The notes under the pieces: generated by a model
Told to the model about the DNA's origin: nothing
Databases searched by the model: none
What the model saw: only the letters and a program-made list of their open reading frames with translations
Position numbers and translations under genes: made by a program
Shown: positions 826 to 12,247 of the stretch, piece after piece
How the letters are laid out: every line of letters starts with the position of its first letter
How positions within the stretch are numbered: the stretch's first letter is position 1
Virus record (IMG/VR): IMGVR_UViG_2870464427_000001
Source: a virus
Lineage: Duplodnaviria; Heunggongvirae; Uroviricota; Caudoviricetes
Strand: one strand, 5' to 3'
DNA length: 32,182 bases

Positions 826-1964
826 AAACGCTTCCGACCGTTAACACCCTACAGCCTATCCTGCATAACCAGATCCCCGTTATCACCACGGAGCTGCTTG
901 CCAAACTATATGGCTGTAGCGTCGAATGTCTTCACAGAAATCACCACCGTAATAAGTCCCGGTTTACAGAAGGAAAACATTTCATAGTTGTAAAAGGTAC
1001 AGATCTCCAAAGTTTGAAAATCTCTTTAAGAGATTTTCAAACCATCGCGAATAACGTTAGAAAACTAATCCTCTGGACCGAACGCGGGGCTGCACGTCAC
1101 GCTAAAATGCTCGAAACCGATCAGGCGTGGGATGTATTCGAACGGCTGGAAGACTGCTACTTCAACCAGAACGCGCAAACGGCCGCGACCGTAACCGTCT
1201 CACCAAACAATGCTCGTGAGGTTGTCGATACGCTCAACGCTAAACCAATGTATTACGTTAAGGTGTGCAACAACGAGCCACTCACAACCTCAGCCGATGT
1301 TGCCCAGGCATTCAGCACCACAAACAATTCCATCGTTATGGCCATCGATGCGTTACGCATTCCTCGCACAGCTGCGGCGCGTCACTTCTTTAAAGAACAA
1401 CGACCGCTGGAAGGAAGCGACCGCGAAATAACAATCTATCGCATGACAAAAGACGGATTTACCTTGCTCATGGAAAGTATCGACGGTCCAGGCGTGAAGG
1501 ATATCAAGCTGGCCTACATTGAAGCCTTTAACGCTATCAGCAGCGTGTTAAAAACACAGTACGAGCGTGATCTGGCTAAACGACTGTACCAGGAAAAAAC
1601 GATTATCCGCGCGGCAACAGAGCATAATCGGCTATTAACGGAACCGAACTACAGGAAGGAACTAATCAAGGAGTTTGACAAGGCAACAGGGAAAACCAAA
1701 GCGGCGCTAAATCTGCCAGCAATGACTCAGGAAAATGTGATATCAGCCTTACTTCTTGATCTGCTCAGAAACGCCAGAGCACTTATCAGCTTTGACGAAA
1801 ACCTGAATCCTCAGCTCAAGCTACTACCACCGACAGGCAAAGTAGTCGACCAGGCTGATCACAACAGCATACTCAGCGTTCTGGATGCAAACCTGCCAGC
1901 CAGGACACTACAGGATCTGATAAAAACATGTGCTGATAAGCTGGCACAGAAAAGCAGACCATAA
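822..1964 (+). CDS. phage antirepressor-like protein with N-terminal ORF6N-type domain
   Basis: 380-aa ORF with GGAGG RBS at 811-815. The N-terminal segment (LPVITTELLAKLYG .. RNKSRFTEGKHF .. LWTERGAARHAKMLETDQAWDVFERLEDCYF) matches the ORF6N/antirepressor signature as I recall it. Confidence 0.7.
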   Translation: MKTLPTVNTLQPILHNQIPVITTELLAKLYGCSVECLHRNHHRNKSRFTEGKHFIVVKGTDLQSLKISLRDFQTIANNVRKLILWTERGAARHAKMLETDQAWDVFERLEDCYFNQNAQTAATVTVSPNNAREVVDTLNAKPMYYVKVCNNEPLTTSADVAQAFSTTNNSIVMAIDALRIPRTAAARHFFKEQRPLEGSDREITIYRMTKDGFTLLMESIDGPGVKDIKLAYIEAFNAISSVLKTQYERDLAKRLYQEKTIIRAATEHNRLLTEPNYRKELIKEFDKATGKTKAALNLPAMTQENVISALLLDLLRNARALISFDENLNPQLKLLPPTGKVVDQADHNSILSVLDANLPARTLQDLIKTCADKLAQKSRP

Positions 1965-2163: not shown

Positions 2164-2699
2164 AATTCCACCATAACTGATAACCACCCTTCAGACACAA
2201 CCCCCCTCCCCCCATACAGGGTGCCCTTTACCGGAGTTCCGGCCCCTTCTCAAAAGCATCAAAAAAAGCTCGAGATCGAGTACCGGAACTCATGCCACCA
2301 GATAGCTCCACATCGTTTCCAATGCTTCGCCGCCGTGTGCGCCCTGTGGCCCACAATCATGCCATTGGTCGTCTGATATACCTTCTTCTGCTCATAGAGC
2401 ACAGGCGAGTTGTCGCACTCCTGCCTTTCTCAGACTCGACTTAGTTTAGATCGCTGTTCCTGGCTTGCGTCAGCACACTTTCCCCTTGTACGCATACCCG
2501 CGCGCCACTTCGCCCAAAAACACCGAACCCAACGAAGTGGCAAAGACAACGACGCGAGCGTGAGTCTGAAATGGGCACCAGTAAAAAAGGGGTTGCAGGC
2601 GCAAAAAGATTTGATTATCTTTAGACGCAAGAAAGCCGCCCCAATCAAGAGGTGTCTTTTTAAATCCAGCCTACCAAGCAAGATTTAAATTTCAGACTG

Positions 2700-2724
2700 A
2701 AAACCGCCCGGCAAGGCGGTTTTT
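2700..2724. terminator. rho-independent terminator-like hairpin (A-tract/T-tract flanked, bidirectional type)
   Basis: accgcc (2702-2707) pairs with ggcggt (2714-2719), 6-nt loop, T-run 2719-2723 and A-tract before; about 50 bp downstream of the minus-strand HTH gene stop. Confidence 0.45.
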
Positions 2725-2772
2725 GTCTTTCTGGCGCTTACATTACACCACCATAAAACGATCCGTAAAGGA

Positions 2773-3045
2773 TCATTTGATCCCTTGTTCCAATTCTGAC
2801 GACACTTTAACCTTTTCCCATACAAGGGTTTGCAGCCTTAACAGAATCGCGTCTTTATCAAGGTGTGAAAGATCCTTCACCATATCGTCAAACGACAGAA
2901 CGCGAATGGCCATCTCAATGACCCTCGGCGGCTCCCCCTTCTCATATCGCTTATATGTAGCCAACGATATCCCAAATTCTTCGGCGGCTCGCTCCTGCGT
3001 CCAGTTCATCCCACGACGCCATAATTTCAATTCATAACCCGTCAT
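2773..3045 (-). CDS. XRE/Cro-CI family helix-turn-helix transcriptional regulator
   Basis: 90 aa from the ATG at 3045, which has a GGAGG RBS; HTH motif MNWTQERAAEEFGISLATYKRYEKG. The longer 3078 start lacks an RBS and would overlap the palindrome. Confidence 0.7.
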   Translation of the reverse strand: MTGYELKLWRRGMNWTQERAAEEFGISLATYKRYEKGEPPRVIEMAIRVLSFDDMVKDLSHLDKDAILLRLQTLVWEKVKVSSELEQGIK

Positions 3046-3073
3046 AGCACCCTCCTCGCACAATATTAACACT

Positions 3074-3100
3074 CGCAAAGTGTCAAAATGACACTTTGCG
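3074..3100. promoter_or_regulatory. perfect 12-bp inverted repeat (operator candidate)
   Basis: cgcaaagtgtca (3074-3085) aaa tgacactttgcg (3089-3100), about 30 bp upstream of the HTH start at 3045 and just downstream of the 3109..3489 gene stop. No T-run follows, so an operator is more likely than a terminator. Confidence 0.5.
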
Positions 3101-3108
3101 CATTGTGT

Positions 3109-3489
3109 TTACTTAACGAGGAATAAAAATGGTTTATTGTTCGGCGGTGTAATCGGGGCTGGCTCGCTTTTGCTCATGCGATCAGTGTACCAAGCCAACT
3201 CCTTGTCAAAGTAAGCCTGATTAAAATAGGCCATGAATGTAGTTTCAAATCCATAACGACCGCTAATACGCAGCATCTGATTGCCGTTCTCTGTTTCCAG
3301 ATATACCTGGGCACGTTCCTGATTCTCCTTCAGCCAGGTTAAAGCCTCATCGCATGAGGACACACGATACTCATCATCGTAGCCGTCATCGATGCGGCTT
3401 GAGGAAGAACGGCAAATCACGCCAACAGAACCAGCCAGGATAGTTTGAATTTTAAGGAAAGCGTTTTTGCGGATTTTAATCATGCTCAT
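3109..3489 (-). CDS. hypothetical protein
   Basis: 126-aa ORF with GGAG RBS 8 nt upstream of the ATG at 3489. No motif recognised. Confidence 0.55.
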   Translation of the reverse strand: MSMIKIRKNAFLKIQTILAGSVGVICRSSSSRIDDGYDDEYRVSSCDEALTWLKENQERAQVYLETENGNQMLRISGRYGFETTFMAYFNQAYFDKELAWYTDRMSKSEPAPITPPNNKPFLFLVK

Positions 3490-3756
3490 CGGGTTATCTC
3501 CGGTTTAACCAGGGCGGGTATCGCTCGGTTTCGGGTATAACCTTAGGAAATTTTTTCCCGCCTGTAAAGCACTTTTTATATAAATCTATAATTATATAAA
3601 TAATAGTAACTGGTGTTTTTTTAGGCGAAGCATTAAACATTTTTGTTTAGCTTATTGGCAAGGTCTTGAAAAAGACATTTCAGCAATGCTATACCATTGA
3701 ACATGGTATCGGCTGAATTTTGTAATTAACACATTTTAAACAATTTGAGGTGCCAA

Positions 3757-4041
3757 ATGGCTAAACAAAAATCTGAAATTGATGCTATTCGAGCATTAAC
3801 AGAAGTAACAATTAAAGGTTTTGAGCAGGTTGCTCAGGCATTAGTTGATATGAGAGAAGCTCAGGGAAAAGTCGTACGAGCAACATATAATGGATTAACC
3901 TCCTCAGGAAAATCTCGCTATGTTGCATCGCTAGTAGAGGAAGTAGGATCACAAGCTGAAGTAAGCCGCATGTTAAATATCACACCAGGGCGCGTTAGCC
4001 AGCTTATGAAGTCCGAAAAAAACCGCAAAAATGGAAAGTAA
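3757..4041 (+). CDS. small putative DNA-binding protein (C-terminal helix-turn-helix)
   Basis: 94 aa from the ATG at 3757 (GAGG RBS 6 nt upstream); C-terminal segment GSQAEVSRMLNITPGRVSQLMK looks like an HTH. Divergent from the 3109..3489 gene across an AT-rich promoter region. Confidence 0.55.
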   Translation: MAKQKSEIDAIRALTEVTIKGFEQVAQALVDMREAQGKVVRATYNGLTSSGKSRYVASLVEEVGSQAEVSRMLNITPGRVSQLMKSEKNRKNGK

Positions 4042-4045
4042 ATAA

Positions 4046-4068
4046 GTAAGGCCCCAATGGGGCCTTAC
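4046..4068. terminator. hairpin between convergent genes (bidirectional terminator candidate)
   Basis: gtaaggcccc (4046-4055) pairs with ggggccttac (4059-4068). Confidence 0.45.
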
Positions 4069-4074
4069 ATTATG

Positions 4075-4374
4075 TTAGACATGGAACGCTACTCGCTTTC
4101 CTGTAGGAAGCTCAACATCCAGGCTTAATTTGCCTCCCATAGCTTCAACGTAACGCTTTAATGTCGCCAGCTTTAAATCATTTCCGCGCTGCTCCAGCTT
4201 TGTTACTGCTGGCTGGCTTATACCCATCGCCTCAGCAACCTGTTTTTGTGATAACTGGAGTTCTTCACGCATCATCTGCAAGCCGACCTCAAGAATCATC
4301 TCATCTGCCATTTCTTTAATTCGCGCCTGGCTTTCAGGTGAACGGCTGGCAATCACCTCATCTAATGTTCTCAT
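4075..4374 (-). CDS. higA: HigA-like antitoxin (XRE-family HTH)
   Basis: 99 aa with HTH LSQKQVAEAMGISQPAVTKLEQ; start overlaps the upstream toxin stop (TAATG at 4372-4376). Confidence 0.75.
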   Translation of the reverse strand: MRTLDEVIASRSPESQARIKEMADEMILEVGLQMMREELQLSQKQVAEAMGISQPAVTKLEQRGNDLKLATLKRYVEAMGGKLSLDVELPTGKRVAFHV

Positions 4375-4727
4375 TACTTGCTCTCCAGTGTGTTCAGATG
4401 TGCTGCAAACTCATCCTCAGCTATACGCACCAGTTTTTCATAAAACCGTTTATCGTTACTTTTGTCTCCTGCACAAAGAACGATGGCCCGGCGAATCGGA
4501 TCGAACGCATAAAAGGCTCTTATCGGACGGCCAGAAAACTGAACGCGAAGCTCTTTCATATTTTTGTACCGAGAACCTTTTACGGTATCGGCATATGGCC
4601 TGGGTAACTCAGGTCCGTAAACCTGTAGCTTTTTCAAATCAGCCAAAACCTTTTCCTGAAGAGCGTCTTCTTGCTCATTTAGCCAGTCGTCAAATCGCTG
4701 GCTAAAAAGTACCGTCCACATGCTCAA
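4374..4727 (-). CDS. higB: HigB-like toxin (RelE/ParE superfamily, Gp49-like)
   Basis: 117 aa; toxin-first gene order and translational coupling typical of HigBA; sequence (RFDDWL .. KELRVQFSGRPIRAFYAFDPIRRAIVLCAGDKSNDKRFYEKLVRIAEDEF) matches the family as recalled. Confidence 0.75.
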   Translation of the reverse strand: MSMWTVLFSQRFDDWLNEQEDALQEKVLADLKKLQVYGPELPRPYADTVKGSRYKNMKELRVQFSGRPIRAFYAFDPIRRAIVLCAGDKSNDKRFYEKLVRIAEDEFAAHLNTLESK

Positions 4728-4964: not shown

Positions 4965-5255
4965 CTATTTTTGTGACTTTACTCCTGGCATATGGACTTC
5001 CCAGCGACGAATCCCCATAGCTGCGCAAAAATCAGCCACATAATTCAATCCCGCCCATTCGCGGATACCACCACGGGCTTTTTCAATGAAAACGGCAATC
5101 CCTTTTTTATTGAGAGCAAAAAGCCGCCAGCTTTTTGTCACTTCGTCCTGGGTAGCCACAACACAAGTGAAAGCTCCCATGCGATACAGGTCCAAGAACT
5201 CTTTGCGTGTTTTGCGTACAAGTTCCATAACAAACCTCATATTTGCATGTTTCAA
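4965..5255 (-). CDS. hypothetical protein (second gene of a two-gene module)
   Basis: 96-aa ORF whose start overlaps the upstream gene by ATGA (5252-5255). No motif recognised. Confidence 0.45.
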   Translation of the reverse strand: MKHANMRFVMELVRKTRKEFLDLYRMGAFTCVVATQDEVTKSWRLFALNKKGIAVFIEKARGGIREWAGLNYVADFCAAMGIRRWEVHMPGVKSQK

Positions 5256-5551
5256 ACATCTGTTTTGTTATCAATGAAGATTAACCCTAACCCAGCGAAG
5301 TAACACAGCAGCGCCCAGGCTGCATACGGAATGCTGGATCTGGATGTGGACTCCTTTAACATCTGCCAGTTGCGAACATTGCGACTATCTTTTAAGCCTA
5401 GTTTTTTGGCCAACTGCGAGCCGCTCATTCCAGTCAGGCCAATGACTGCCCGAACTTCTCCACATGTAGGAGATTCCCATTCATCCGCTTTTTTTAAACA
5501 AGCCGGATTCAACATTTTTAAAACAGTATCTTTATCCATAACCATCTCCAT
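5252..5551 (-). CDS. putative HTH DNA-binding protein with C-terminal hydrophobic segment
   Basis: 99-aa ORF; HTH-like VIGLTGMSGSQLAKKLGLKDSRNVRNWQ followed by a hydrophobic stretch IPYAAWALLCYFAGLGLIFI. Confidence 0.5.
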   Translation of the reverse strand: MEMVMDKDTVLKMLNPACLKKADEWESPTCGEVRAVIGLTGMSGSQLAKKLGLKDSRNVRNWQMLKESTSRSSIPYAAWALLCYFAGLGLIFIDNKTDV

Positions 5552-5785
5552 TTATTATATCTACGATGGTAGGAAATCTTTTCCTATGTGGCAATAGAAA
5601 TTTACTACATTGCGTATAAGACAAGTTTTCTATGTCTAATAGGAAATGATGTTTCTTACGTTTTATCGCGTTCTGATGGCTACTGTGTGCGTATTTATCG
5701 ACGTTTATTGATAAGGCTCGCCCCTTCCTCCTGCAAAGCCCGGCCGTAGGCCTTATTTCGGCCTTATATAAATTGATTTTGTATA

Positions 5786-7117: not shown

Positions 7118-7158
7118 TGTCGCAAGAAGCCCGCAGATTTATCTGCGGGCTTTTTGTT
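7076..7158 (+). ncRNA. candidate CopA-like antisense RNA opposite the repA leader
   Basis: Plus-strand promoter-like -35 TTGCGT (7043-7048) and -10 TATAAT (7064-7069), then about 80 nt ending in a terminator (gcccgcaga / tctgcgggc stem 7128-7149 plus T-run 7150-7158). Size and position resemble CopA of IncFII replicons. Boundaries are inferred. Confidence 0.35.
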
Positions 7159-7344: not shown

Positions 7345-7899
7345 TCAATGATTCCCAGCCGGAAACCTGCGGTAAAGCGTGGATAAGGTAACATCGAAGA
7401 TAATCGCTATCCGCTTACGTGAAACACCATTCGCAATAAGTCTTCCGATCTGTTCCCATTGCTCTGGTGCCAGCTTTGAGCGGCGTCCTCCTATCCTGCC
7501 GTTAGCCCTTGCCACCGCCAATCCTGCACGCGTTCTTTCAAGCATATTTTCCCGCTCCATCTCTGCGACTGCACTCAGCATCGTGTAGGCAAAGCGGCCA
7601 ATTGAAGTGCTAATTTTTATCCCTTCCGTAATCGAAATAAACTCAATGTTGTTTGATAAAAAATAGTTAAGAAAATCAACAAGATGAATCAGGGAACGCC
7701 CCATTCGGTCCAGCTTCCAGACAATAACCGTATCGCCCGGCCGTAACACCTTAAGTAGCTTATCAAGTCCTGGTCGTTTTGATTTAGCACCGGATATTTT
7801 ATCTTCAAAAATCCGGTCACATCCTAAACTCCTGAGCGCCTCCAGTTGTAATTCCAAATTCTGGTCAAAAGTTGACACCCTCGCATAACCATATTGCAT
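7345..7899 (-). CDS. serine-recombinase DNA invertase (Gin/Cin/Pin/Hin family)
   Basis: 184 aa; YARVSTFDQ catalytic-serine motif, VWKLDRMGRS, GRIGGRR, C-terminal HTH; aligns closely with Mu Gin as recalled. Confidence 0.9.
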   Translation of the reverse strand: MQYGYARVSTFDQNLELQLEALRSLGCDRIFEDKISGAKSKRPGLDKLLKVLRPGDTVIVWKLDRMGRSLIHLVDFLNYFLSNNIEFISITEGIKISTSIGRFAYTMLSAVAEMERENMLERTRAGLAVARANGRIGGRRSKLAPEQWEQIGRLIANGVSRKRIAIIFDVTLSTLYRRFPAGNH

Positions 7900-7963
7900 A
7901 CTTTCTAAACCGCGATTGTTGCTAAAAGCGGGAAAAAATATCGTTCAGACGACACAGAGGCAA

Positions 7964-7989
7964 TTCGCAAAAACCTCGGTTTGCAGGAA
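7964..7989 (+). other. gix/cix-like inversion crossover site (left)
   Basis: ttcgcaaaaacctcggtttgcaggaa resembles the gix consensus TTATCCAAAACCTCGGTTTACAGGAA. A 25-bp stretch (7973-7997) is identical to the reverse complement of 10902-10926. Confidence 0.7.
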
Positions 7990-8877
7990 ACGGTAAACAA
8001 GGCTGGTAACGCCGTTCAGCGTTCCGGTGATAAAATGACCGGAGAACTGAAAATTGGCACGGTGAATGCGCTGCGAATTTTCAATGATGCCTTCGGTCTT
8101 ATTTTCCGTCGTTCAGAAGATTTTCTTCATTTCATTCCGACGGCTGAAGGACAAGGCGAAAACGGTGATATCGGCCCATTAAGGCCATTCGCTATAAATC
8201 TGAGAACAGGTGCTATATCTGTCAGCCACGGGGCCAAAATTGAAGGAGGTCTAGCTATTGGAGCTACTGATAACGCACTGGGTGAAAACTCCATTGTTCT
8301 GGGAGATAACGACACCGGATTTAGGCAAGATGGAGATGGTATTATTAGCTTCTATTCAAATGGTTCGCGCATCGGACATATTGATGAGTTAGGATTACAT
8401 ATTTATAAAGATATTGAATCTAATGGCAGCAATTTTAGATTAAAAGGTAATTACCGCCACCACATTACATTCGCCAACGAAGACGGAAGTATTCGTATGT
8501 TTTTGTGGAAAGATAAAGATGGTGATGGTGTTCATATTAATAATGGTTCAAGCGGTGGCGGTGATTTCGTTTTTAAAACAGATGGGGGATTTGCGCTGGG
8601 AAGTGGTGCGCAAGTTGCGTCTAATGGCGATATTTATGGTTCAGTGTGGGAAAACAACTGGTTAAGCACATGGCTGCATAATCATGTCGTTCGGGATATT
8701 CGTCTTGGCAGCATTGAATATAAAAACGTATGGCGCGACTCCGGCTTTGGCGATGCGTCAGGTTATGTTTTAACAGCCGCAATTAACAGCAATGCGGATG
8801 ATATTGTCGACACTGTTGCCAGAAGGCCAATTCAGAAATTGATTGGGGGAATATGGTATAACGTGGGGAGTGTTTAA
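7981..8877 (+). CDS. alternative tail-fibre C-terminal cassette (silent in this orientation; no own start)
   Basis: 298-aa ORF opening exactly at the crossover site (QETVNKAG..). Its C-terminus ([18 protein letters not shown]) parallels the active fibre C-terminus (ARPIQYCINGTWYNAGSI). Confidence 0.65.
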
Positions 8878-8878
8878 G

Positions 8879-9406
8879 ATGATGCACCTGAAAAATATTA
8901 AGGCCGGGAATCCGAAAACACCGGAACAATACCAGCTAACTAAAAAAGCGGGCGTGGTATGGCTCTTTTGTGAAGATGGCAAAAACTGGTATGAGGAACA
9001 AAAGAATTTTCAGCCAGACACCATAAAAATTGCTTACGATGAGAACAACATCATCGTTGCTGTCAGTAAAGACGTTTCAACTATTAATCCTGAAGGGCTA
9101 AGCATAGTTGAAGTTCCTGATATTACGGCAAATCGTCGCGCAGACAATAACGGAAAATGGATGTTTCTGGATGGTAAAGTAGTAAAGAGGGAATATACAG
9201 AACAGGAACTGCAACAACAGGCCGAATCACAAAAGGCCGCATTGCTTTCCGAAGCTGAATCAGTCATCCAGCCGCTGGAACGCGCTGTCAGGCTGAATAT
9301 GGCAACAGACGAGGAACGCACACGACTGGAAGCATGGGAACGCTACAGTGTTCTGGTCAGCCGTGTGGATACGGCAAATCCTGAATGGCCACAAAAGCCT
9401 GAATAA
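8879..9406 (+). CDS. tail-fibre assembly protein (alternative, U'-like)
   Basis: ATG at 8879 directly after the cassette stop (8875-8877); [14 protein letters not shown].. is paralogous to the 9435..9968 product. Confidence 0.75.
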
Positions 9407-9411
9407 AAATT

Positions 9412-9431
9412 AAGGCCCGATATCGGGCCTT
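9412..9431. terminator. perfect hairpin between the convergent tail-fibre assembly genes
   Basis: aaggcccg-atat-cgggcctt at the centre of the invertible segment. Confidence 0.45.
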
Positions 9432-9434
9432 CTC

Positions 9435-9968
9435 TCATTCTGGTTGTTCGGGAAACGTTACTGGCAGGCTGGAAGTGTCTGTAGATTCGACTTTCTGCGC
9501 AAAGAGCATCCACTCTGTTAATTTTTGTTTATTCTCGTCGGAAATGATGCCCAGCCGTAGCTGTGAGTCCCATAGCAGGGTTTTATCCCTGACAAGTTGC
9601 AACAGGCTTTGCTTTTCATTCTCTGCCTGCTGCCTCTGTTCCTCCTCGGTATAAGTTCGCTTTATCACTACGCCATCTTTGAACATCCATTTACCCGAAA
9701 TATCAGCCCGGCGATTTGCTGTAATATCAGGAACCTCAACGACGCTTGCGCCTTCTGGATTAATTGCTGAAACATCCTTTTCAATACAAATAATAACGCC
9801 GTTGTGGTCATAGACCATTTTCAACGTATCAGTCTGGAAATTCTTTTGTTCCTCATACCAGTTTTTTCCATCCTCTGAATAAAGCCATTTGATGTTAAAT
9901 TGTTTCGTTAGCTGGTACTGCTCCACTGTTTTAGGATTACCAGCGGTAATGTTTTTTAAGTGCATCAT
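9435..9968 (-). CDS. tail-fibre assembly protein (U/G-like)
   Basis: 177 aa, MMHLKNITAGNPKT..; immediately downstream of the tail-fibre gene. Confidence 0.8.
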   Translation of the reverse strand: MMHLKNITAGNPKTVEQYQLTKQFNIKWLYSEDGKNWYEEQKNFQTDTLKMVYDHNGVIICIEKDVSAINPEGASVVEVPDITANRRADISGKWMFKDGVVIKRTYTEEEQRQQAENEKQSLLQLVRDKTLLWDSQLRLGIISDENKQKLTEWMLFAQKVESTDTSSLPVTFPEQPE

Positions 9969-9970
9969 AA

Positions 9971-12247
9971 TTAAATACTTCCCGCGTTATACCAAGTCCC
10001 ATTAATGCAATACTGAATTGGCCTTGCCTGAGTTGTATCAATTAATTCGTCACGGTTCCCGTTAACTGAACCCGTAACGACATAACCTGACCTGTCAGAC
10101 CAGCCGGGACCATTCCATGTCTGAACAGATGACAGACCGCCAAGGCGAATACCTGTAATAAACCTTGAGTTACATTCTGCCTGCGTGTATGCACCAACAT
10201 CTCCCGCAGAGGGTTTGCGGGTCGTGGTGTAAAACTCTGACCAGTCAGCCTCAAATCCGTAACCATCACGCGCTGAACGATAATAAATACCGCCGTTCTT
10301 ATAATTCACACGGAACTGTACGGCAGGGCAACTCCCCTCGCTCATATTGAAATGGAGGATTAATGTCGATGCGCCACCAATATTTGCTTGATAGACCCCG
10401 CTATTCCAGTTCCAGCCAACAGCTTTATCATTTCCGACAGTGCTTCCTGTTTTCCCTAAAGCAAATGCAGGCTGCTGGTTTTTCGTGTTGTAGTCACGTC
10501 GCCAGCCAGGTAAATACCCTGAACCGTGGTTAATATATATAAATTGCGCATTCGTAGTGCCACCACCGCTAGAGGTACTCGGTGTGGTTATACGAATGGT
10601 CATGGCGCCTTTATTGCCCATAACTTCAATAACGCAACCCGCAAGGTGAATAAGTCCACATCCGGTGTCAGTAATAATTTTATTATTGCCGTATGACCAT
10701 GAGCATTTACACATCCAGTATGGATGATTGAAGGCCCACTGAGATTCCAGCCATTCAATAAATTGCGCCGTCGTCCAGTTTCCTGCACCTGTGCTAATAG
10801 AGCCATGAAAAGAGCGGCAAGCACCTATTGTTTGCGTAAATTTATCTTTGTTTGGAATATCTGCGCCGTTCTGGTTTTTCTGCAATGCGCCAGCAGCCTG
10901 ATTTACCGTTTCCTGCAAACCGAGGTATTCGATAACGGCGGAAACGGTCGCTTGAGCCAGAATATCCCGCCCGACTTTTGTCAGAGTTGCCAGGCTGGCA
11001 GTGTCATTCCCCGTAAAATACGGAAACCTGTCTGCCGCAGTAGCAAGCCCGGCCAGCGCCGTCAGGGTGGCATCTTTCGGTTGCTTACCCGCAAGCGCGT
11101 TAGTCATGGTGGTCGCAAAATTCGGGTCGTTGCCCAACGCCGCAGCCAGCTCGTTTAGCGTATTCAGTGCGTCAGGCGACGAGTCCACGAGGGCAGCGAT
11201 CGCAGCCATAACATAAGCCGTGCTTGCGATCTGAGTATTGTTAGTACCTTTTGGCGCAGTTGGTGTTGTTGGTGTTCCGCTCAGCGCCGGACTGTTCAGG
11301 GGCGCTTTCTTGTTCGTTTCATCCATTACCACCTTTACAGCTTTTGATGTCGCGGCCAGTGTTTCAGACGTGCTGTTGGTGGCGCTACTGAGCTGAACAA
11401 TCCCTTTTCGCGCTGTGGTAGCGTCCTGTGCGGTGTATTTAGCGTTAGCAAGGTCATATGCTGCCTTTACCGCCTTTGGCGTTGCTGCCAGCGTCTCAGA
11501 ATCGCTGTTAGTTGCGCTACTAAGCTGAACAATCCCTTTTCGCGCCGTGGTAGCGTCCTGTGCGGTGTATTTAGCGTTAGCCAGGTCATATGCTGCCTTA
11601 ACAGCCTTAGGCGTCGCAGCAAGCGTTTCAGACGTGCTATTGGTGGCGCTGCTAAGTTGAACAAAGCCTTTTGAGGTTAAAGTTGCATCAGGATGATTAC
11701 GTGATTGCTCATGTTTCACAATGGCTTGCTTAAGCCGCTTTGCTGAAACAGCAAGGGAATCATCTGTACCTGCATCAATTTCTTGTTCATTAGCAAATCT
11801 TGCAACCCCAACAACAGTTTCGGTCGCGGGAGGATTAATAAACTCAATATCACCAAATGTAATATTTTTAGTATCAAGAGTCTTAATTGCTATGTCACTT
11901 GATATTAAAGCAATAGTAGATGATGCTTTATTTATTATTGCTTGTTCTTGCGAGTATACAGCAAACAACGTTCCCTTATTTGTATACAATCCTATTGTAT
12001 GGACAACATACTCATCTTTACTATCATCCTTCGCCGTTACATGAATTGTATCAGGGGAAACAACTTTGCCACCTATTGTGGTAAGTCGTTTTATTTCGTC
12101 TGTTATATTTGTTTGTGAGGTTGACGTGACATAATATCTACTACCTAAACCAACAGAAACAATCTCAACTTTATTTGTTCCTGTTTTGTTGGCATTAACC
12201 AACTCCTGACGCCCGGCGTCAGTCATCGTAAATAATAATTTACTCAC
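9971..12247 (-). CDS. tail-fibre protein (P2 H / Mu S-like constant N-terminal part fused to a variable C-terminal cassette)
   Basis: 758 aa; long stretches match P2 gpH as recalled (DATLTSKGF..QLSSATNSTSETLAATPKAVKAAYDLANAKYTAQDATTARKG .. [13 protein letters not shown]); crossover site at codons 442-449. Confidence 0.9.
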   Translation of the reverse strand: MSKLLFTMTDAGRQELVNANKTGTNKVEIVSVGLGSRYYVTSTSQTNITDEIKRLTTIGGKVVSPDTIHVTAKDDSKDEYVVHTIGLYTNKGTLFAVYSQEQAIINKASSTIALISSDIAIKTLDTKNITFGDIEFINPPATETVVGVARFANEQEIDAGTDDSLAVSAKRLKQAIVKHEQSRNHPDATLTSKGFVQLSSATNSTSETLAATPKAVKAAYDLANAKYTAQDATTARKGIVQLSSATNSDSETLAATPKAVKAAYDLANAKYTAQDATTARKGIVQLSSATNSTSETLAATSKAVKVVMDETNKKAPLNSPALSGTPTTPTAPKGTNNTQIASTAYVMAAIAALVDSSPDALNTLNELAAALGNDPNFATTMTNALAGKQPKDATLTALAGLATAADRFPYFTGNDTASLATLTKVGRDILAQATVSAVIEYLGLQETVNQAAGALQKNQNGADIPNKDKFTQTIGACRSFHGSISTGAGNWTTAQFIEWLESQWAFNHPYWMCKCSWSYGNNKIITDTGCGLIHLAGCVIEVMGNKGAMTIRITTPSTSSGGGTTNAQFIYINHGSGYLPGWRRDYNTKNQQPAFALGKTGSTVGNDKAVGWNWNSGVYQANIGGASTLILHFNMSEGSCPAVQFRVNYKNGGIYYRSARDGYGFEADWSEFYTTTRKPSAGDVGAYTQAECNSRFITGIRLGGLSSVQTWNGPGWSDRSGYVVTGSVNGNRDELIDTTQARPIQYCINGTWYNAGSI
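10910..10935 (-). other. gix/cix-like inversion crossover site (right, inside the tail-fibre gene)
   Basis: Minus strand reads ttatcgaatacctcggtttgcaggaa (23/26 to the gix consensus), inverted relative to the left site. Confidence 0.7.
11320..11680 (-). repeat. in-frame tandem repeat (about 129 bp unit, roughly 2.7 copies) encoding phage-fibre repeats
   Basis: Near-identical DNA blocks visible directly; encode the repeated peptide KGIVQLSSATNS.SETLAATPKAVKAAYDLANAKYTAQDATTAR. Confidence 0.7.

What the first reader, a model, noticed from the sequence alone, without database searches (positions are those of the whole stretch)
2773..3489. Uncharacterised two-gene module: 126-aa protein plus XRE regulator separated by a perfect palindrome
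An unrecognised 126-aa protein is followed, on the same strand, by a small XRE-family HTH gene, with a perfect 12-bp inverted repeat between them. A small unknown protein with a cognate HTH and operator in a phage accessory region is the typical shape of a toxin-antitoxin, abortive-infection or anti-defence module. The function is not inferable from sequence alone.
Basis: inference. Interest (0 to 1): 0.5.

Follow-up and report, generated by a model that had tools for sequence, protein, structure and literature searches.

The report
Orphan phage-plasmid gene beside self-regulating repressor
The two genes and the palindrome are real, but they look like two separately controlled units in the maintenance arm of a 48-kb E. 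coli phage-plasmid rather than a toxin-antitoxin pair. One unit is an uncharacterised mobile-element protein driven by a promoter cassette the element reuses, and the other is a common plasmid repressor with its own operator.

Summary
On the minus strand, a 126-aa ORF (3109-3489) is followed by an XRE-type HTH gene (2773-3045, 90 aa). A perfect 12+12-bp inverted repeat (3074-3100) lies between them. The window is a ~48-kb E. coli phage-plasmid.

The "cognate pair" reading is weak:
- **HTH unit:** HTH, palindrome and a conserved extended -10 form a self-contained unit. Full-length homologues in IncI1 and IncL/M plasmids carry similar palindromes and no 126-aa gene.
- **126-aa promoter:** it has its own ~110-bp promoter-operator-leader cassette, repeated at 95% identity before two other operons. 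The operator also sits in the promoter of a second, Aca1-like HTH gene (5252-5551). Marine phage-plasmids use a similar cassette before their homologues.
- **126-aa protein:** a confident model with no significant fold match, no Pfam family, and about 36 clusters among 1.84 billion representatives. Relatives sit in plasmid-maintenance or phage-early regions, and some are fused to LPD25.
- **Against toxin-antitoxin:** two natural lesions hit the HTH gene (IS110, MITE) while the 126-aa gene stays intact.

Most likely this is an early or establishment accessory protein, possibly counter-defence. Function is unproven. Interest is moderate.

The parts
3109..3489 (-). 126-aa protein gene (RefSeq WP_000061763.1, PHROG 8090). 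It has a globular alpha/beta core (residues 1-107), a Pro-rich linker and a short hydrophobic C-terminal motif, PFLFLVK.
   Evidence: ORF. phrog_8090 E 8e-90. AF2 pLDDT 82.8, pTM 0.74. dN/dS 0.06-0.08. Family alignment.
2773..3045 (-). 90-aa XRE-type HTH repressor gene (HTH1, WP_000148348.1, PHROG 6962).
   Evidence: HTH_3 29.5 bits. phrog_6962 E 2e-45. RefSeq start. 35% identity, E 4e-16, to the IncI1 83-aa HTH. dN/dS 0.12-0.22.
3074..3100 (.). Perfect 12+12-bp inverted repeat with a 3-nt spacer. Inferred operator of HTH1, centred about -31 relative to the inferred HTH1 transcription start.
   Evidence: The core AAAGTrTCA-N3-TGAyACTTT is near-invariant in 5 diverged loci (one arm substitution each in L017 and L026), and the outer arm positions change symmetrically. 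Similar palindromes lie upstream of the IncI1 and IncL/M homologues.
3063..3071 (-). Extended -10 element TGTTAATAT of the inferred HTH1 promoter. The SD GAGGAGGG follows at 3057-3050.
   Evidence: TGnTAnnAT is conserved at the same position in all 5 aligned loci. The IncI1 homologue has TGATAAAAT. The promoter role is inferred.
3490..3598 (-). Portable promoter-operator-leader cassette ending at the ATG of the 126-aa gene. It begins with the AT-rich TTATATAA-N8-TTATATAA.
   Evidence: About 95% identical copies with sharp boundaries lie upstream of two other operons of the same plasmid. About 90% conserved in L017, where the coding sequence is 66% identical. The same layout occurs in marine phage-plasmids.
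3540..3568 (-). Inferred sigma-70 promoter inside the cassette: -35 TTTACA (3568-3563), a 17-bp spacer holding the palindrome GGAAA-AAA-TTTCC (3558-3546), and -10 TAAGGT (3545-3540).
   Evidence: The positions align with TTGCAA-N17-TATTAT in L007 and TTGCCA-N17-TACCAT at the HTH2 promoter. The -10 matches consensus at only 3 of 6 positions, and the consensus scanner did not call it.
2698..2725 (.). GC-rich hairpin flanked by A and T runs. Likely bidirectional terminator ending the unit after HTH1.
   Evidence: Conserved after the HTH gene in L017 and L001.
5252..5551 (-). Second HTH gene (HTH2, PHROG 8351). Candidate repressor of the cassette promoters. It is followed in the same direction by a 96-aa gene at 4965-5255.
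   Evidence: 39% identity, E 5e-18, to the HTH gene that follows the 126-aa homologue in L007. Its profile matches anti-CRISPR-associated Aca1 of phage JBD30 at hhalign probability 90.9, E 1.1e-6.
5566..5594 (-). HTH2 promoter with the same architecture as the cassette: -35 TTGCCA, a 17-bp spacer holding TAGGAAA-AGA-TTTCCTA (5586-5570), and -10 TACCAT.

Best explanation
The locus is two adjacent but separately controlled transcription units in the plasmid-maintenance and accessory arm of a ~48-kb Enterobacteriaceae phage-plasmid. The arm runs repA - HTH2 operon - higBA - this locus - antirepressor - parA.

**Unit 1, the 126-aa gene.** It is transcribed from a portable ~110-bp promoter-operator-leader cassette that the element also places in front of a DUF3560/primase-like gene and an 89-aa gene. 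The cassette's operator, GGAAA-N3-TTTCC, lies in the -35/-10 spacer and recurs in the promoter of a second, Aca1-like HTH gene (HTH2, 5252-5551). I infer that HTH2 is the autoregulated repressor of this small regulon. That design would give a burst of expression on entry or induction, followed by shut-off.

**Unit 2, HTH1.** It is a self-contained autoregulated XRE repressor. It has its own extended -10 promoter just downstream of the palindrome. An HTH1 dimer bound to the palindrome (about -44 to -18) would occlude that promoter. HTH1 is also made by read-through from unit 1.

**The 126-aa protein.** It is a non-enzymatic binder: a compact alpha/beta domain with no significant fold match, a disordered Pro-rich linker, and a short C-terminal peptide motif. 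It belongs to a small family restricted to phages, phage-plasmids and conjugative plasmids. Its most likely role is an early or establishment accessory factor that acts on a host or rival-element protein, with counter-defence as one possibility. It is not a toxin held in check by HTH1.

**Shown:** gene reality, the palindrome, the cassette repeats, the homology and distribution data, and the two natural HTH lesions. **Inferred:** promoter positions, which repressor binds which operator, and the biological role.
For: **Element identity.** The query region is 100% identical to pGMI14-004_3, a plasmid with phage head, tail and lysis genes plus repA and parA. It is found in 71 of 5,426 complete E. 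coli genomes, almost always on plasmids. It also occurs in Yersinia phages vB_YpM_39, 41 and 44.

**Cassette.**
- Window 3486-3599 recurs at 95% identity before the DUF3560 gene and the 89-aa gene, with sharp edges ending at each ATG.
- The same operator sits in the same spacer position in the HTH2 promoter.
- Marine phage-plasmids L004, L007, L008 and L003 have 64-89-bp cassettes of the same layout and a recognisably similar SD end. These are repeated before the 126-aa homologue and neighbouring genes, including the HTH2 homologue's operon.
- HTH2 resembles Aca1: hhalign probability 90.9.

**HTH1 unit.**
- The palindrome core and the extended -10 are conserved across 5 loci whose proteins are 65-71% identical, while the flanks diverge.
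- The palindrome is unique in the plasmid.
- Full-length homologues in IncI1 (35% identity) and IncL/M (42% identity over 84 of 90 residues) carry AAAGTG- or AAATGT-type palindromes upstream and have no 126-aa partner.

**126-aa protein.**
- The model is confident: pLDDT 82.8, with the tail below 50.
- Only 36 of 1.84 billion cluster representatives match.
- In the alignment, most distant members keep the linker plus a C-terminal motif (NVVSLCAYRxR...).
- Relatives are fused to, or adjacent to, other small domains, including LPD25 of conjugative-element polyvalent proteins (PMC5512222).
- Contexts include sites next to rep or par genes, next to SSB and Rad52 in a phage early operon, and between parAB and TraM/relaxase.

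**Against a toxin role.** IS110 truncates the HTH gene at about codon 31 while the 125-aa gene is intact. A ~316-bp MITE-like insertion separates the SD from the ATG of HTH1 in vB_YpM_41, and vB_YpM_44 has the same two-piece match.
Against: - There are no expression data. All promoters and operator-repressor assignments are read from sequence.
- The cassette -10 (TAAGGT) matches consensus at only 3 of 6 positions, and the consensus scanner did not call it.
- The HTH2-Aca1 match is a one-to-one profile comparison, and the pairwise BLAST is only E 0.006. It does not establish membership.
- The LPD25 hits are at or below Pfam's cut-off (19-27 bits against 27) and occur only in distant relatives.
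- The pair 126-aa + HTH1 is syntenic in every enterobacterial relative examined, so some functional coupling cannot be excluded.
- Both HTH lesions are single lineages, seen in a short contig from a highly fragmented assembly and in lytically propagated phages.
- Nothing identifies the target of the 126-aa protein. A replication or maintenance role fits the context about as well as counter-defence.
Confidence: 0.45

Rival explanations
1. Reverse-order type II toxin-antitoxin module. The 126-aa protein is a new toxin and HTH1 is its DNA-binding antitoxin, made from an internal promoter as in higBA or mqsRA. The palindrome is the autoregulatory site.
For: The gene order, the small sizes, the XRE partner with weak sub-threshold hits to the MqsA, HipB and Y4mF antitoxin models, and an internal promoter for the downstream gene all fit this pattern. 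The pair is syntenic across the enterobacterial clade. A genuine higBA pair lies 0.6 kb away, so the arm does collect such modules.
Against: - No toxin family or fold matches.
- The HTH gene is disrupted by IS110 in L026 and uncoupled from its SD in vB_YpM_41 and 44, with the upstream gene intact.
- The HTH family occurs without this partner in IncI1 and IncL/M plasmids.
- Distant 126-aa homologues lack this HTH.
- The upstream gene is driven by a promoter cassette shared with unrelated operons, not by an HTH1-controlled promoter.
Confidence: 0.07
2. Defence or superinfection-exclusion module. The 126-aa protein is an abortive-infection or exclusion effector expressed from the resident phage-plasmid, with HTH1 as its regulator or sensor.
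For: It lies in an accessory arm of a temperate element beside a toxin-antitoxin pair and an antirepressor. The family is restricted to mobile elements. One relative sits in an array of small cassette-like genes in a Photobacterium chromosome.
Against: - There is no PADLOC hit for the 126-aa protein.
- It has no enzymatic or membrane features. It is a small soluble binder with a disordered tail.
- The repressor-controlled burst design and the company it keeps (a DUF3560/primase-like gene; SSB/Rad52 early operons; fusion to a polyvalent-protein domain) point to the incoming element's side of the conflict.
Confidence: 0.12
3. Plasmid replication or maintenance accessory factor. The 126-aa protein would be an adaptor that tethers a host replisome or segregation component to the phage-plasmid through its C-terminal peptide. 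HTH1 would be a separate backbone regulator.
For: Homologues repeatedly lie next to rep, par, kfrA-like or dnaB genes. The cassette's upstream AT-rich 8-mer array also flanks the parA promoter. The domain-linker-peptide build is typical of recruiters.
Against: - Some relatives are in non-plasmid phage early operons or in a chromosome.
- There is no similarity to known Kfr, Kle, Klc or Psi proteins.
- No partner has been identified. The weak clamp and PCNA fold hits have TM scores of about 0.3 and are not meaningful.
Confidence: 0.2
4. The inverted repeat works as an RNA hairpin between the two cistrons, as an mRNA stabiliser, processing site or partial terminator, and not as a protein-binding operator.
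For: The sense-strand RNA forms a 12-bp stem. The 67-nt segment folds at -23.3 kcal/mol with z = -3.45. Outer arm positions change on both sides and preserve pairing.
Against: - No U-tract follows the hairpin on the sense strand. The terminator-like call was for the antisense orientation.
- The 9-bp core is conserved in sequence, not merely in pairing, and L026 has an A-C mismatch in it.
- It abuts a conserved extended -10.
- Homologous HTH genes that are not preceded by a co-directional gene have similar palindromes.
Confidence: 0.15

Closest known systems
Anti-CRISPR operons controlled by Aca repressors (for example acrIF1-aca1 of Pseudomonas phage JBD30)
   Same: A small protein of unknown fold in a mobile element lies immediately upstream of a small HTH gene. 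A strong promoter carries a palindromic operator for an autoregulated HTH repressor. The second HTH of this element (HTH2) matches Aca1 at hhalign probability 90.9.
   Different: The palindrome next to HTH1 lies between the genes and can only govern HTH1. The putative Aca1-like repressor is encoded 1.8 kb away and would act in trans on several cassette copies. No inhibition of any defence system is known. The 126-aa profile shows no similarity to AcrIF1.
kil-kor regulons of IncP-1 plasmids (klcA-klcB-korC and the kle operons of RK2/R751)
   Same: Accessory backbone genes of unknown role sit in several operons that share operators for small plasmid repressors. A repressor gene is the last gene of an accessory operon. 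The genes lie near rep, par and kfrA.
   Different: HTH1 has no detectable similarity to R751 KorC. The 126-aa profile has none to KlcA, KlcB, KleA, KleE or KfrA-C. Here the whole promoter-leader is a repeated cassette, not only the operator.
Reverse-order type II toxin-antitoxin systems with XRE antitoxins (HigBA, MqsRA)
   Same: The gene order is small protein then XRE HTH. The downstream gene has an internal promoter, and there is a palindromic site.
   Different: There is no toxin fold. The HTH is dispensable in natural variants, the partners are not co-inherited outside one clade, and the upstream gene is under a foreign promoter.
Small XRE regulators of conjugative plasmids (the IncI1 83-aa HTH between oriT and ardA; the IncL/M pOXA-48 82-aa HTH)
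   Same: They are homologous to HTH1 over nearly the full length at 35-42% identity. They carry similar AAAGTG- or AAATGT-type palindromes and an extended -10 upstream.
   Different: As far as I could find, these homologues are uncharacterised too, and their neighbours differ. In pOXA-48 the HTH lies inside an operon with a secreted protein and a nuclease-like gene.
Repeated leading-region promoters of conjugative plasmids (Frpo1/Frpo2 of F)
   Same: Near-identical promoter elements are repeated in front of several early accessory operons of one element (PMC9849209).
   Different: Frpo elements are long single-strand hairpin promoters. The cassette here is a short ordinary duplex promoter with an operator, and its RNA fold is not exceptional (z = -1.6). 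The element enters cells as phage DNA.

Membership tests
Type II toxin-antitoxin (reverse order, XRE antitoxin) | The upstream protein belongs to a toxin superfamily or fold. | tested here: not met
Type II toxin-antitoxin (reverse order, XRE antitoxin) | The antitoxin is indispensable while the toxin gene is intact. | tested here: not met
   Natural variants: IS110 truncates the HTH gene in L026 with the 125-aa gene intact. A MITE-like insertion lies between SD and ATG in vB_YpM_41, with the same two-piece match in vB_YpM_44. Caveat: these are single lineages with no growth data.
Type II toxin-antitoxin (reverse order, XRE antitoxin) | The two partners co-occur as a unit across their families. 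| tested here: not met
   tblastn finds the HTH in 3,781 plasmid records and the 126-aa protein in 62. Distant 126-aa homologues have other neighbours. The pair is linked only within the enterobacterial clade.
Type II toxin-antitoxin (reverse order, XRE antitoxin) | Toxicity of the first protein, neutralised by direct binding of the second. | not testable with these tools
   Needs expression and interaction assays.
acr-aca type anti-defence operon | A small accessory gene directly upstream of a small HTH gene on the same strand in a mobile element. | tested here: met
acr-aca type anti-defence operon | The HTH belongs to a recognised Aca family. | tested here: inconclusive
   HTH1 against Aca1: BLAST E 0.007 over 45 residues. 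HTH2 profile against Aca1: hhalign probability 90.9, E 1.1e-6. Only Aca1 was compared. No Aca HMM library was available.
acr-aca type anti-defence operon | The repressor's operator lies in the promoter in front of the accessory gene. | tested here: inconclusive
   The HTH1 palindrome lies downstream of the accessory gene, so this is not met for HTH1. The cassette promoter has a different palindrome, shared with the HTH2 promoter. Binding is untested.
acr-aca type anti-defence operon | The accessory protein inhibits a defence system. | not testable with these tools
   Needs phage or plasmid challenge assays.
XRE / HTH_3 DNA-binding regulators | A Pfam HTH_3 domain above the gathering score. | tested here: met
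   29.5 bits against 23. HTH_31 scores 27.2 against 27.
IncP KorC repressors | Sequence similarity to KorC. | tested here: not met
   No BLASTP alignment to R751 KorC at E<=100.
PHROG 8090 / PHROG 6962 (phage protein families of unknown function) | A full-length profile match. | tested here: met
   E 8.4e-90 over 1-126 of 126. E 2.2e-45.
LPD25-containing polyvalent proteins of conjugative elements | Presence of an LPD25 domain in the protein. | tested here: not met
   The window protein has no Pfam hit. Only distant relatives P0058, P0062, P0061 and P0064 carry borderline LPD25 matches, 19-27 bits against a cut-off of 27.
Controller (C-protein) of restriction-modification systems | An adjacent restriction endonuclease or methyltransferase gene under the HTH's control. 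| tested here: not met
   HTH1 is followed by a terminator-like hairpin at 2698-2725, and no R-M gene is adjacent. Only the IncL/M homologue is followed by a nuclease-like gene.

The most novel reading that the evidence does not exclude
The 126-aa family is a new counter-defence or establishment effector with a previously unseen fold. It would be one output of a small regulon in which an Aca1-like repressor shuts off a portable promoter-operator-leader cassette. That cassette is conserved from enterobacterial to marine phage-plasmids, so it would itself be a search handle for finding further early effectors (DUF3560/primase-like, 89-aa, 76-aa, 108-aa and 96-aa genes) by association.
Probability: 0.3. 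Interest if true: 0.7.

Novelty: new member of a known kind. Interest (0 to 1): 0.42.

Why it matters
About 1% of complete E. coli genomes, including the reference strain ATCC 25922, carry this phage-plasmid. Its maintenance arm is almost entirely hypothetical.

Separating the locus into a self-regulating repressor unit and a cassette-driven gene removes a tempting but probably wrong toxin-antitoxin label. It also points to a testable regulon: one repressor and four promoters with the same operator.

If the cassette marks early or establishment genes, it offers a sequence tag for finding new effectors in phage-plasmids of distant genera. The 126-aa family would then be a small, structurally new binder worth a target hunt.

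If not, the locus is an ordinary pair of accessory genes.

Tried and rejected
- **Family scans of the 126-aa protein.** Pfam, NCBIfam and PADLOC gave nothing.
- **PDB sequence searches.** The 126-aa profile and HTH1 both gave nothing.
- **Comparison with known accessory proteins.** hhalign of the family profile against 31 known leading-region, kil-kor and Acr proteins all gave probability below 1%. These included F PsiB, SSB, DUF905, DUF1380, DUF932, YgeA and the antirestriction protein; R751 KlcA, KlcB, KleA, KleE, KfrA-C, KorA and KorC; IncI1 ArdA; and AcrIF1. A six-frame version of this comparison timed out.
- **HTH1 against named regulators.** There was no similarity to R751 KorC or to F YgeA. 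The 'ygeA' label on one IncI1 record is therefore a different protein from F YgeA.
- **pOXA-48 neighbour.** The 153-aa gene upstream of the pOXA-48 HTH homologue is unrelated to the 126-aa family.
- **RNA element in the cassette.** Rfam found no family, and the leader fold gave z = -1.6, which is unremarkable.
- **HTH1 palindrome elsewhere.** No other copy exists in the plasmid. Half-site matches are at chance level.
- **Literature.** There were no hits for the protein accession, and nothing functional on DUF3560 or LPD25 beyond the original domain survey.
- **Genome-collection scan.** It returned only 3 loci, and the first attempt failed for lack of a conserved stretch.
Full report
**1. What is in the sequence**

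Both genes lie on the minus strand. The 126-aa ORF is 3109..3489. The HTH ORF is 2773..3078 as the longest ORF.

RefSeq and all relatives start the HTH at ATG 3045, giving 90 aa beginning MTGYELK, behind the SD GAGGAGGG. A terminator-like hairpin flanked by A and T runs follows at 2698-2725.

The inverted repeat CGCAAAGTGTCA-AAA-TGACACTTTGCG lies at 3074-3100 in the 63-nt spacer. Perfect repeats of this size occur at three places in the window, against 0.05 expected. This one is unique in the window and in the complete plasmid.

Both ORFs are real genes. dN/dS is 0.06-0.08 for the 126-aa gene, with synonymous sites saturated against the window copy. It is 0.12-0.22 for the HTH gene.

**2. What the window is**

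The query region (window 2700-3560) is 100% identical to pGMI14-004_3, a 48.7-kb circular E. coli plasmid. That plasmid carries terminase, portal, capsid, sheath, tube, baseplate, tail-fibre and lysis genes together with repA and parA, so it is a phage-plasmid.

The locus is present in 71 of 5,426 complete E. coli genomes, and 207 of 209 matching places are on plasmids. In PLSDB it is in 61 plasmids, most of those listed 46-52 kb and all typed non-mobilisable. It is also in three Yersinia pestis phages.

The local gene order is repA - a two-gene HTH operon - higBA - (a variable 94-aa gene) - this locus - antirepressor - parA and a CI-like repressor.

**3. The HTH and the palindrome are a self-contained unit**

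I aligned the spacer from five loci whose 126-aa proteins are 65-71% identical to the window's (window, L017, L025, L026, L027).

- The core AAAGTrTCA-N3-TGAyACTTT is near-invariant, with one arm substitution each in L017 and L026.
- The outer arm positions change on both sides together (GCG:CGC, GCT:AGC, GTG:CAC). L025 has 15-bp perfect arms.
- An extended -10, TGnTAnnAT, is kept 5 nt downstream, while the rest of the spacer diverges.

Taking TGTTAATAT (3071-3063) as the -10 places the palindrome at about -44 to -18. That is a position for repression, not activation. This step is inferred.

HTH1 passes Pfam HTH_3. tblastn finds matches in 3,781 plasmid records, 3,303 of them conjugative, against 62 for the 126-aa protein. 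Most of the HTH matches are below 60% identity, so part of that count may be generic XRE similarity. Full-length homology was confirmed for two groups:

- **IncI1.** An 83-aa homologue (35% identity, E 4e-16) stands alone between the oriT region and ardA. It is preceded by AAAAGTGAA-N5-TTCACTTTT, then TGATAAAAT, then a second AAAGTGA...TCACTTT repeat.
- **IncL/M (pOXA-48 type).** The 42%-identical homologue lies in an operon preceded by AAAATGTTCA-N4-TGAACATTTT.

A 53%-identical IncFII homologue has two different palindromes upstream. The family therefore looks like autoregulators, each with a palindrome in front of its own transcription unit, whatever lies upstream.

HTH1 is not similar to R751 KorC or to F YgeA.

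The repeat would also fold as a strong RNA hairpin. However, it has no U-tract on the sense strand, and its core is conserved in sequence rather than only in pairing. I rank the RNA reading second.

**4. The 126-aa gene has its own, reused promoter cassette**

Window 3486-3599 is the ~110 bp ending at the ATG. It recurs at about 95% identity at two other places in the plasmid, outside the window, each ending exactly at a start codon. One precedes a 355-aa DUF3560 gene and the other an 89-aa gene. The C-terminal half of the DUF3560 protein matches a PHROG annotated as primase.

In L017 the cassette is about 90% conserved although the coding sequence is only 66% identical.

Read by alignment, the cassette contains, in order:
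- an AT-rich TTATATAA-N8-TTATATAA block;
- -35 TTTACA (3568-3563);
- a 17-bp spacer holding GGAAA-AAA-TTTCC (3558-3546);
- -10 TAAGGT (3545-3540);
- a ~45-nt leader and the SD.

The same palindrome sits in the same spacer position, between TTGCCA and TACCAT, in front of a second HTH gene, HTH2 (5252-5551).

Marine phage-plasmids show the same design. They use 64-89-bp cassettes with TTGCAA-N17-TATTAT, a spacer palindrome TAGGAC-N5-GTCCTA, and a nearly identical SD end (AAACCGAGATAA..CGATG). In L004, L007 and L008 the cassette is repeated before the 126-aa homologue, before a 76-aa gene followed by an HTH2 homologue, and before a 108-aa gene. L003 has two copies.

HTH2 is 39% identical to that marine HTH (E 5e-18). 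Its family profile matches Aca1 of phage JBD30 at hhalign probability 90.9.

I infer that HTH2 is the autoregulated repressor of the cassette promoters and that the 126-aa gene is one member of its regulon. There is no binding or expression evidence. The E. coli -10 is weak, and the consensus scanner did not call this promoter.

**5. The 126-aa protein**

The AlphaFold model is confident, with pLDDT 82.8, pTM 0.74, and most of the core above 90. The topology is beta-alpha-beta-beta-alpha-beta-beta-beta-alpha up to residue 107. A disordered Pro-rich stretch follows, ending in PFLFLVK.

The word-indexed search found only close enterobacterial relatives. An exhaustive profile search of 1.84 billion cluster representatives found 36 hits. 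The distant ones are 25-43% identical, and those traced to a source come mostly from marine Gammaproteobacteria such as Pontibacterium, Paraglaciecola, Enterovibrio, Vibrio and Photobacterium.

Conserved features are IRKNAxKKI at the N-terminus, a DDSYD loop and a WL pair. In the alignment, most members also have a linker plus a C-terminal motif such as NVVSLCAYRxR. The protein is neither acidic nor basic overall (16 acidic and 16 basic residues by my count from the sequence) and has no catalytic-looking motif.

Some relatives carry a ~76-aa C-terminal domain that is a separate adjacent gene elsewhere. More distant ones carry a borderline LPD25 domain. [quoted passage not shown]

Observed contexts are:
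- next to rep genes in phage-plasmids;
- near parA;
- between parAB and TraM/relaxase in a conjugative plasmid;
- directly after SSB in a phage Rad52/NinG/Dam early operon;
- next to a DUF3560 gene in Enterovibrio;
- in an array of small same-strand genes separated by a 30-bp repeat in a Photobacterium chromosome, near a Lar-type restriction-alleviation gene.

**6. Why not a toxin-antitoxin pair**

- There is no toxin fold.
- In L026 an IS110 element truncates the HTH gene at about codon 31, while the 125-aa gene is intact.
- In vB_YpM_41 a ~316-bp element lies between the SD and the ATG of HTH1. It has 27-bp terminal inverted repeats and a 5-bp duplication. vB_YpM_44 shows the same two-piece match.
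- The partners are not co-inherited outside the enterobacterial clade.

These points are suggestive but not conclusive, because the lesions are single lineages with no growth data. I leave 7% for this reading.

**7. Verdict**

The shape is real, but it is better read as a cassette-driven accessory gene beside an independent autoregulated repressor.

The most likely role of the 126-aa protein is an early or establishment binder, possibly counter-defence. A replication or maintenance adaptor is the main alternative.

The family and fold are uncharacterised, while the regulatory logic is of a known kind. The most interesting by-product is the portable promoter-operator-leader cassette, apparently tied to an Aca1-like repressor and conserved across distant phage-plasmids.

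Noticed in passing
window 4965-5594 (minus strand): A two-gene operon: HTH2 (99 aa, PHROG 8351, Aca1-like by profile comparison) followed by a 96-aa gene (PHROG 4595, unknown). Its promoter carries the same spacer palindrome as the cassette in front of the 126-aa gene.
   Followed up: partly
L002 23418-23529 and 30667-30779 (same plasmid, outside the window): Two further ~95% identical copies of the promoter-leader cassette. One lies in front of a DUF3560 protein whose C-terminal half matches a PHROG annotated as primase. The other lies in front of an 89-aa unknown gene, immediately after an MT-A70 methyltransferase gene.
   Followed up: partly
L002 14036, 19585, 19650, 23417, 24626, 29523, 30667: The AT-rich array TTATATAA-N8-TTATATAA (8-bp periodic units) occurs at 7 sites against 0.05 expected. 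The sites examined are intergenic, and two flank the parA promoter. It could be an UP-like element or the site of the small ParG-like partition protein.
   Followed up: partly
L001 8652-8967 (Yersinia phage vB_YpM_41; the equivalent insertion point is window 3044-3048): A ~316-bp MITE-like insertion with 27-bp terminal inverted repeats (GGGGTTCCGTGGGCATTTCTGCGATAA) and a 5-bp target duplication. It separates the HTH1 start codon from its SD.
   Followed up: partly
window 3757-4041 (+), with hairpin 4046-4068: A 94-aa gene divergent from the cassette, with a weak sigma-70 region-4-like HTH match. It is absent from the Yersinia phage version of the locus, so it is a variable insert. A perfect GC-rich hairpin follows it.
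   Followed up: no
window 4075-4727 (minus strand): A RelE/ParE-family (HigB-like, annotated HigB2 in the Yersinia phage record) toxin gene of 117 aa, overlapping a 99-aa HTH antitoxin-like gene. This is a genuine-looking toxin-antitoxin pair 0.6 kb from the finding.
   Followed up: no
window 1012-1042: A perfect inverted repeat with 15-bp arms and a 1-nt centre (GTTTGAAAATCTCTT-T-AAGAGATTTTCAAAC), lying inside the 380-aa antirepressor-like ORF (822-1964).
   Followed up: no
window 7127-7152: A perfect 12-bp-arm inverted repeat (AAGCCCGCAGAT-TT-ATCTGCGGGCTT) about 110 bp upstream of the RefSeq repA start.
   Followed up: no
window 7345-10929: A DNA invertase gene (7345-7899) next to a tail-fibre region bounded by inverted repeats (7970-8019 / 10880-10929 and nested pairs). 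This is an invertible host-range segment of the Cin/Hin type.
   Followed up: no
window 11332-11727: Three tandem copies of a 132-nt unit, with identities to the first copy of 100, 88 and 61%.
   Followed up: no
L020 5435-13597 (Photobacterium kishitanii chromosome): A 26-32-bp repeat occurs at 8 or more sites within an array of small same-strand unknown genes. The array includes a 126-aa-family member and a Lar-type restriction-alleviation gene, and it resembles an integron cassette array.
   Followed up: no
L007 5536-5766 and P0018/P0023 C-termini: A ~76-aa domain (…YWEMFTDNASRRAYRG…KSWRG…) is a separate gene right after the 126-aa homologue in marine phage-plasmids and is fused to it in other relatives. 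It has no Pfam or PHROG match.
   Followed up: partly
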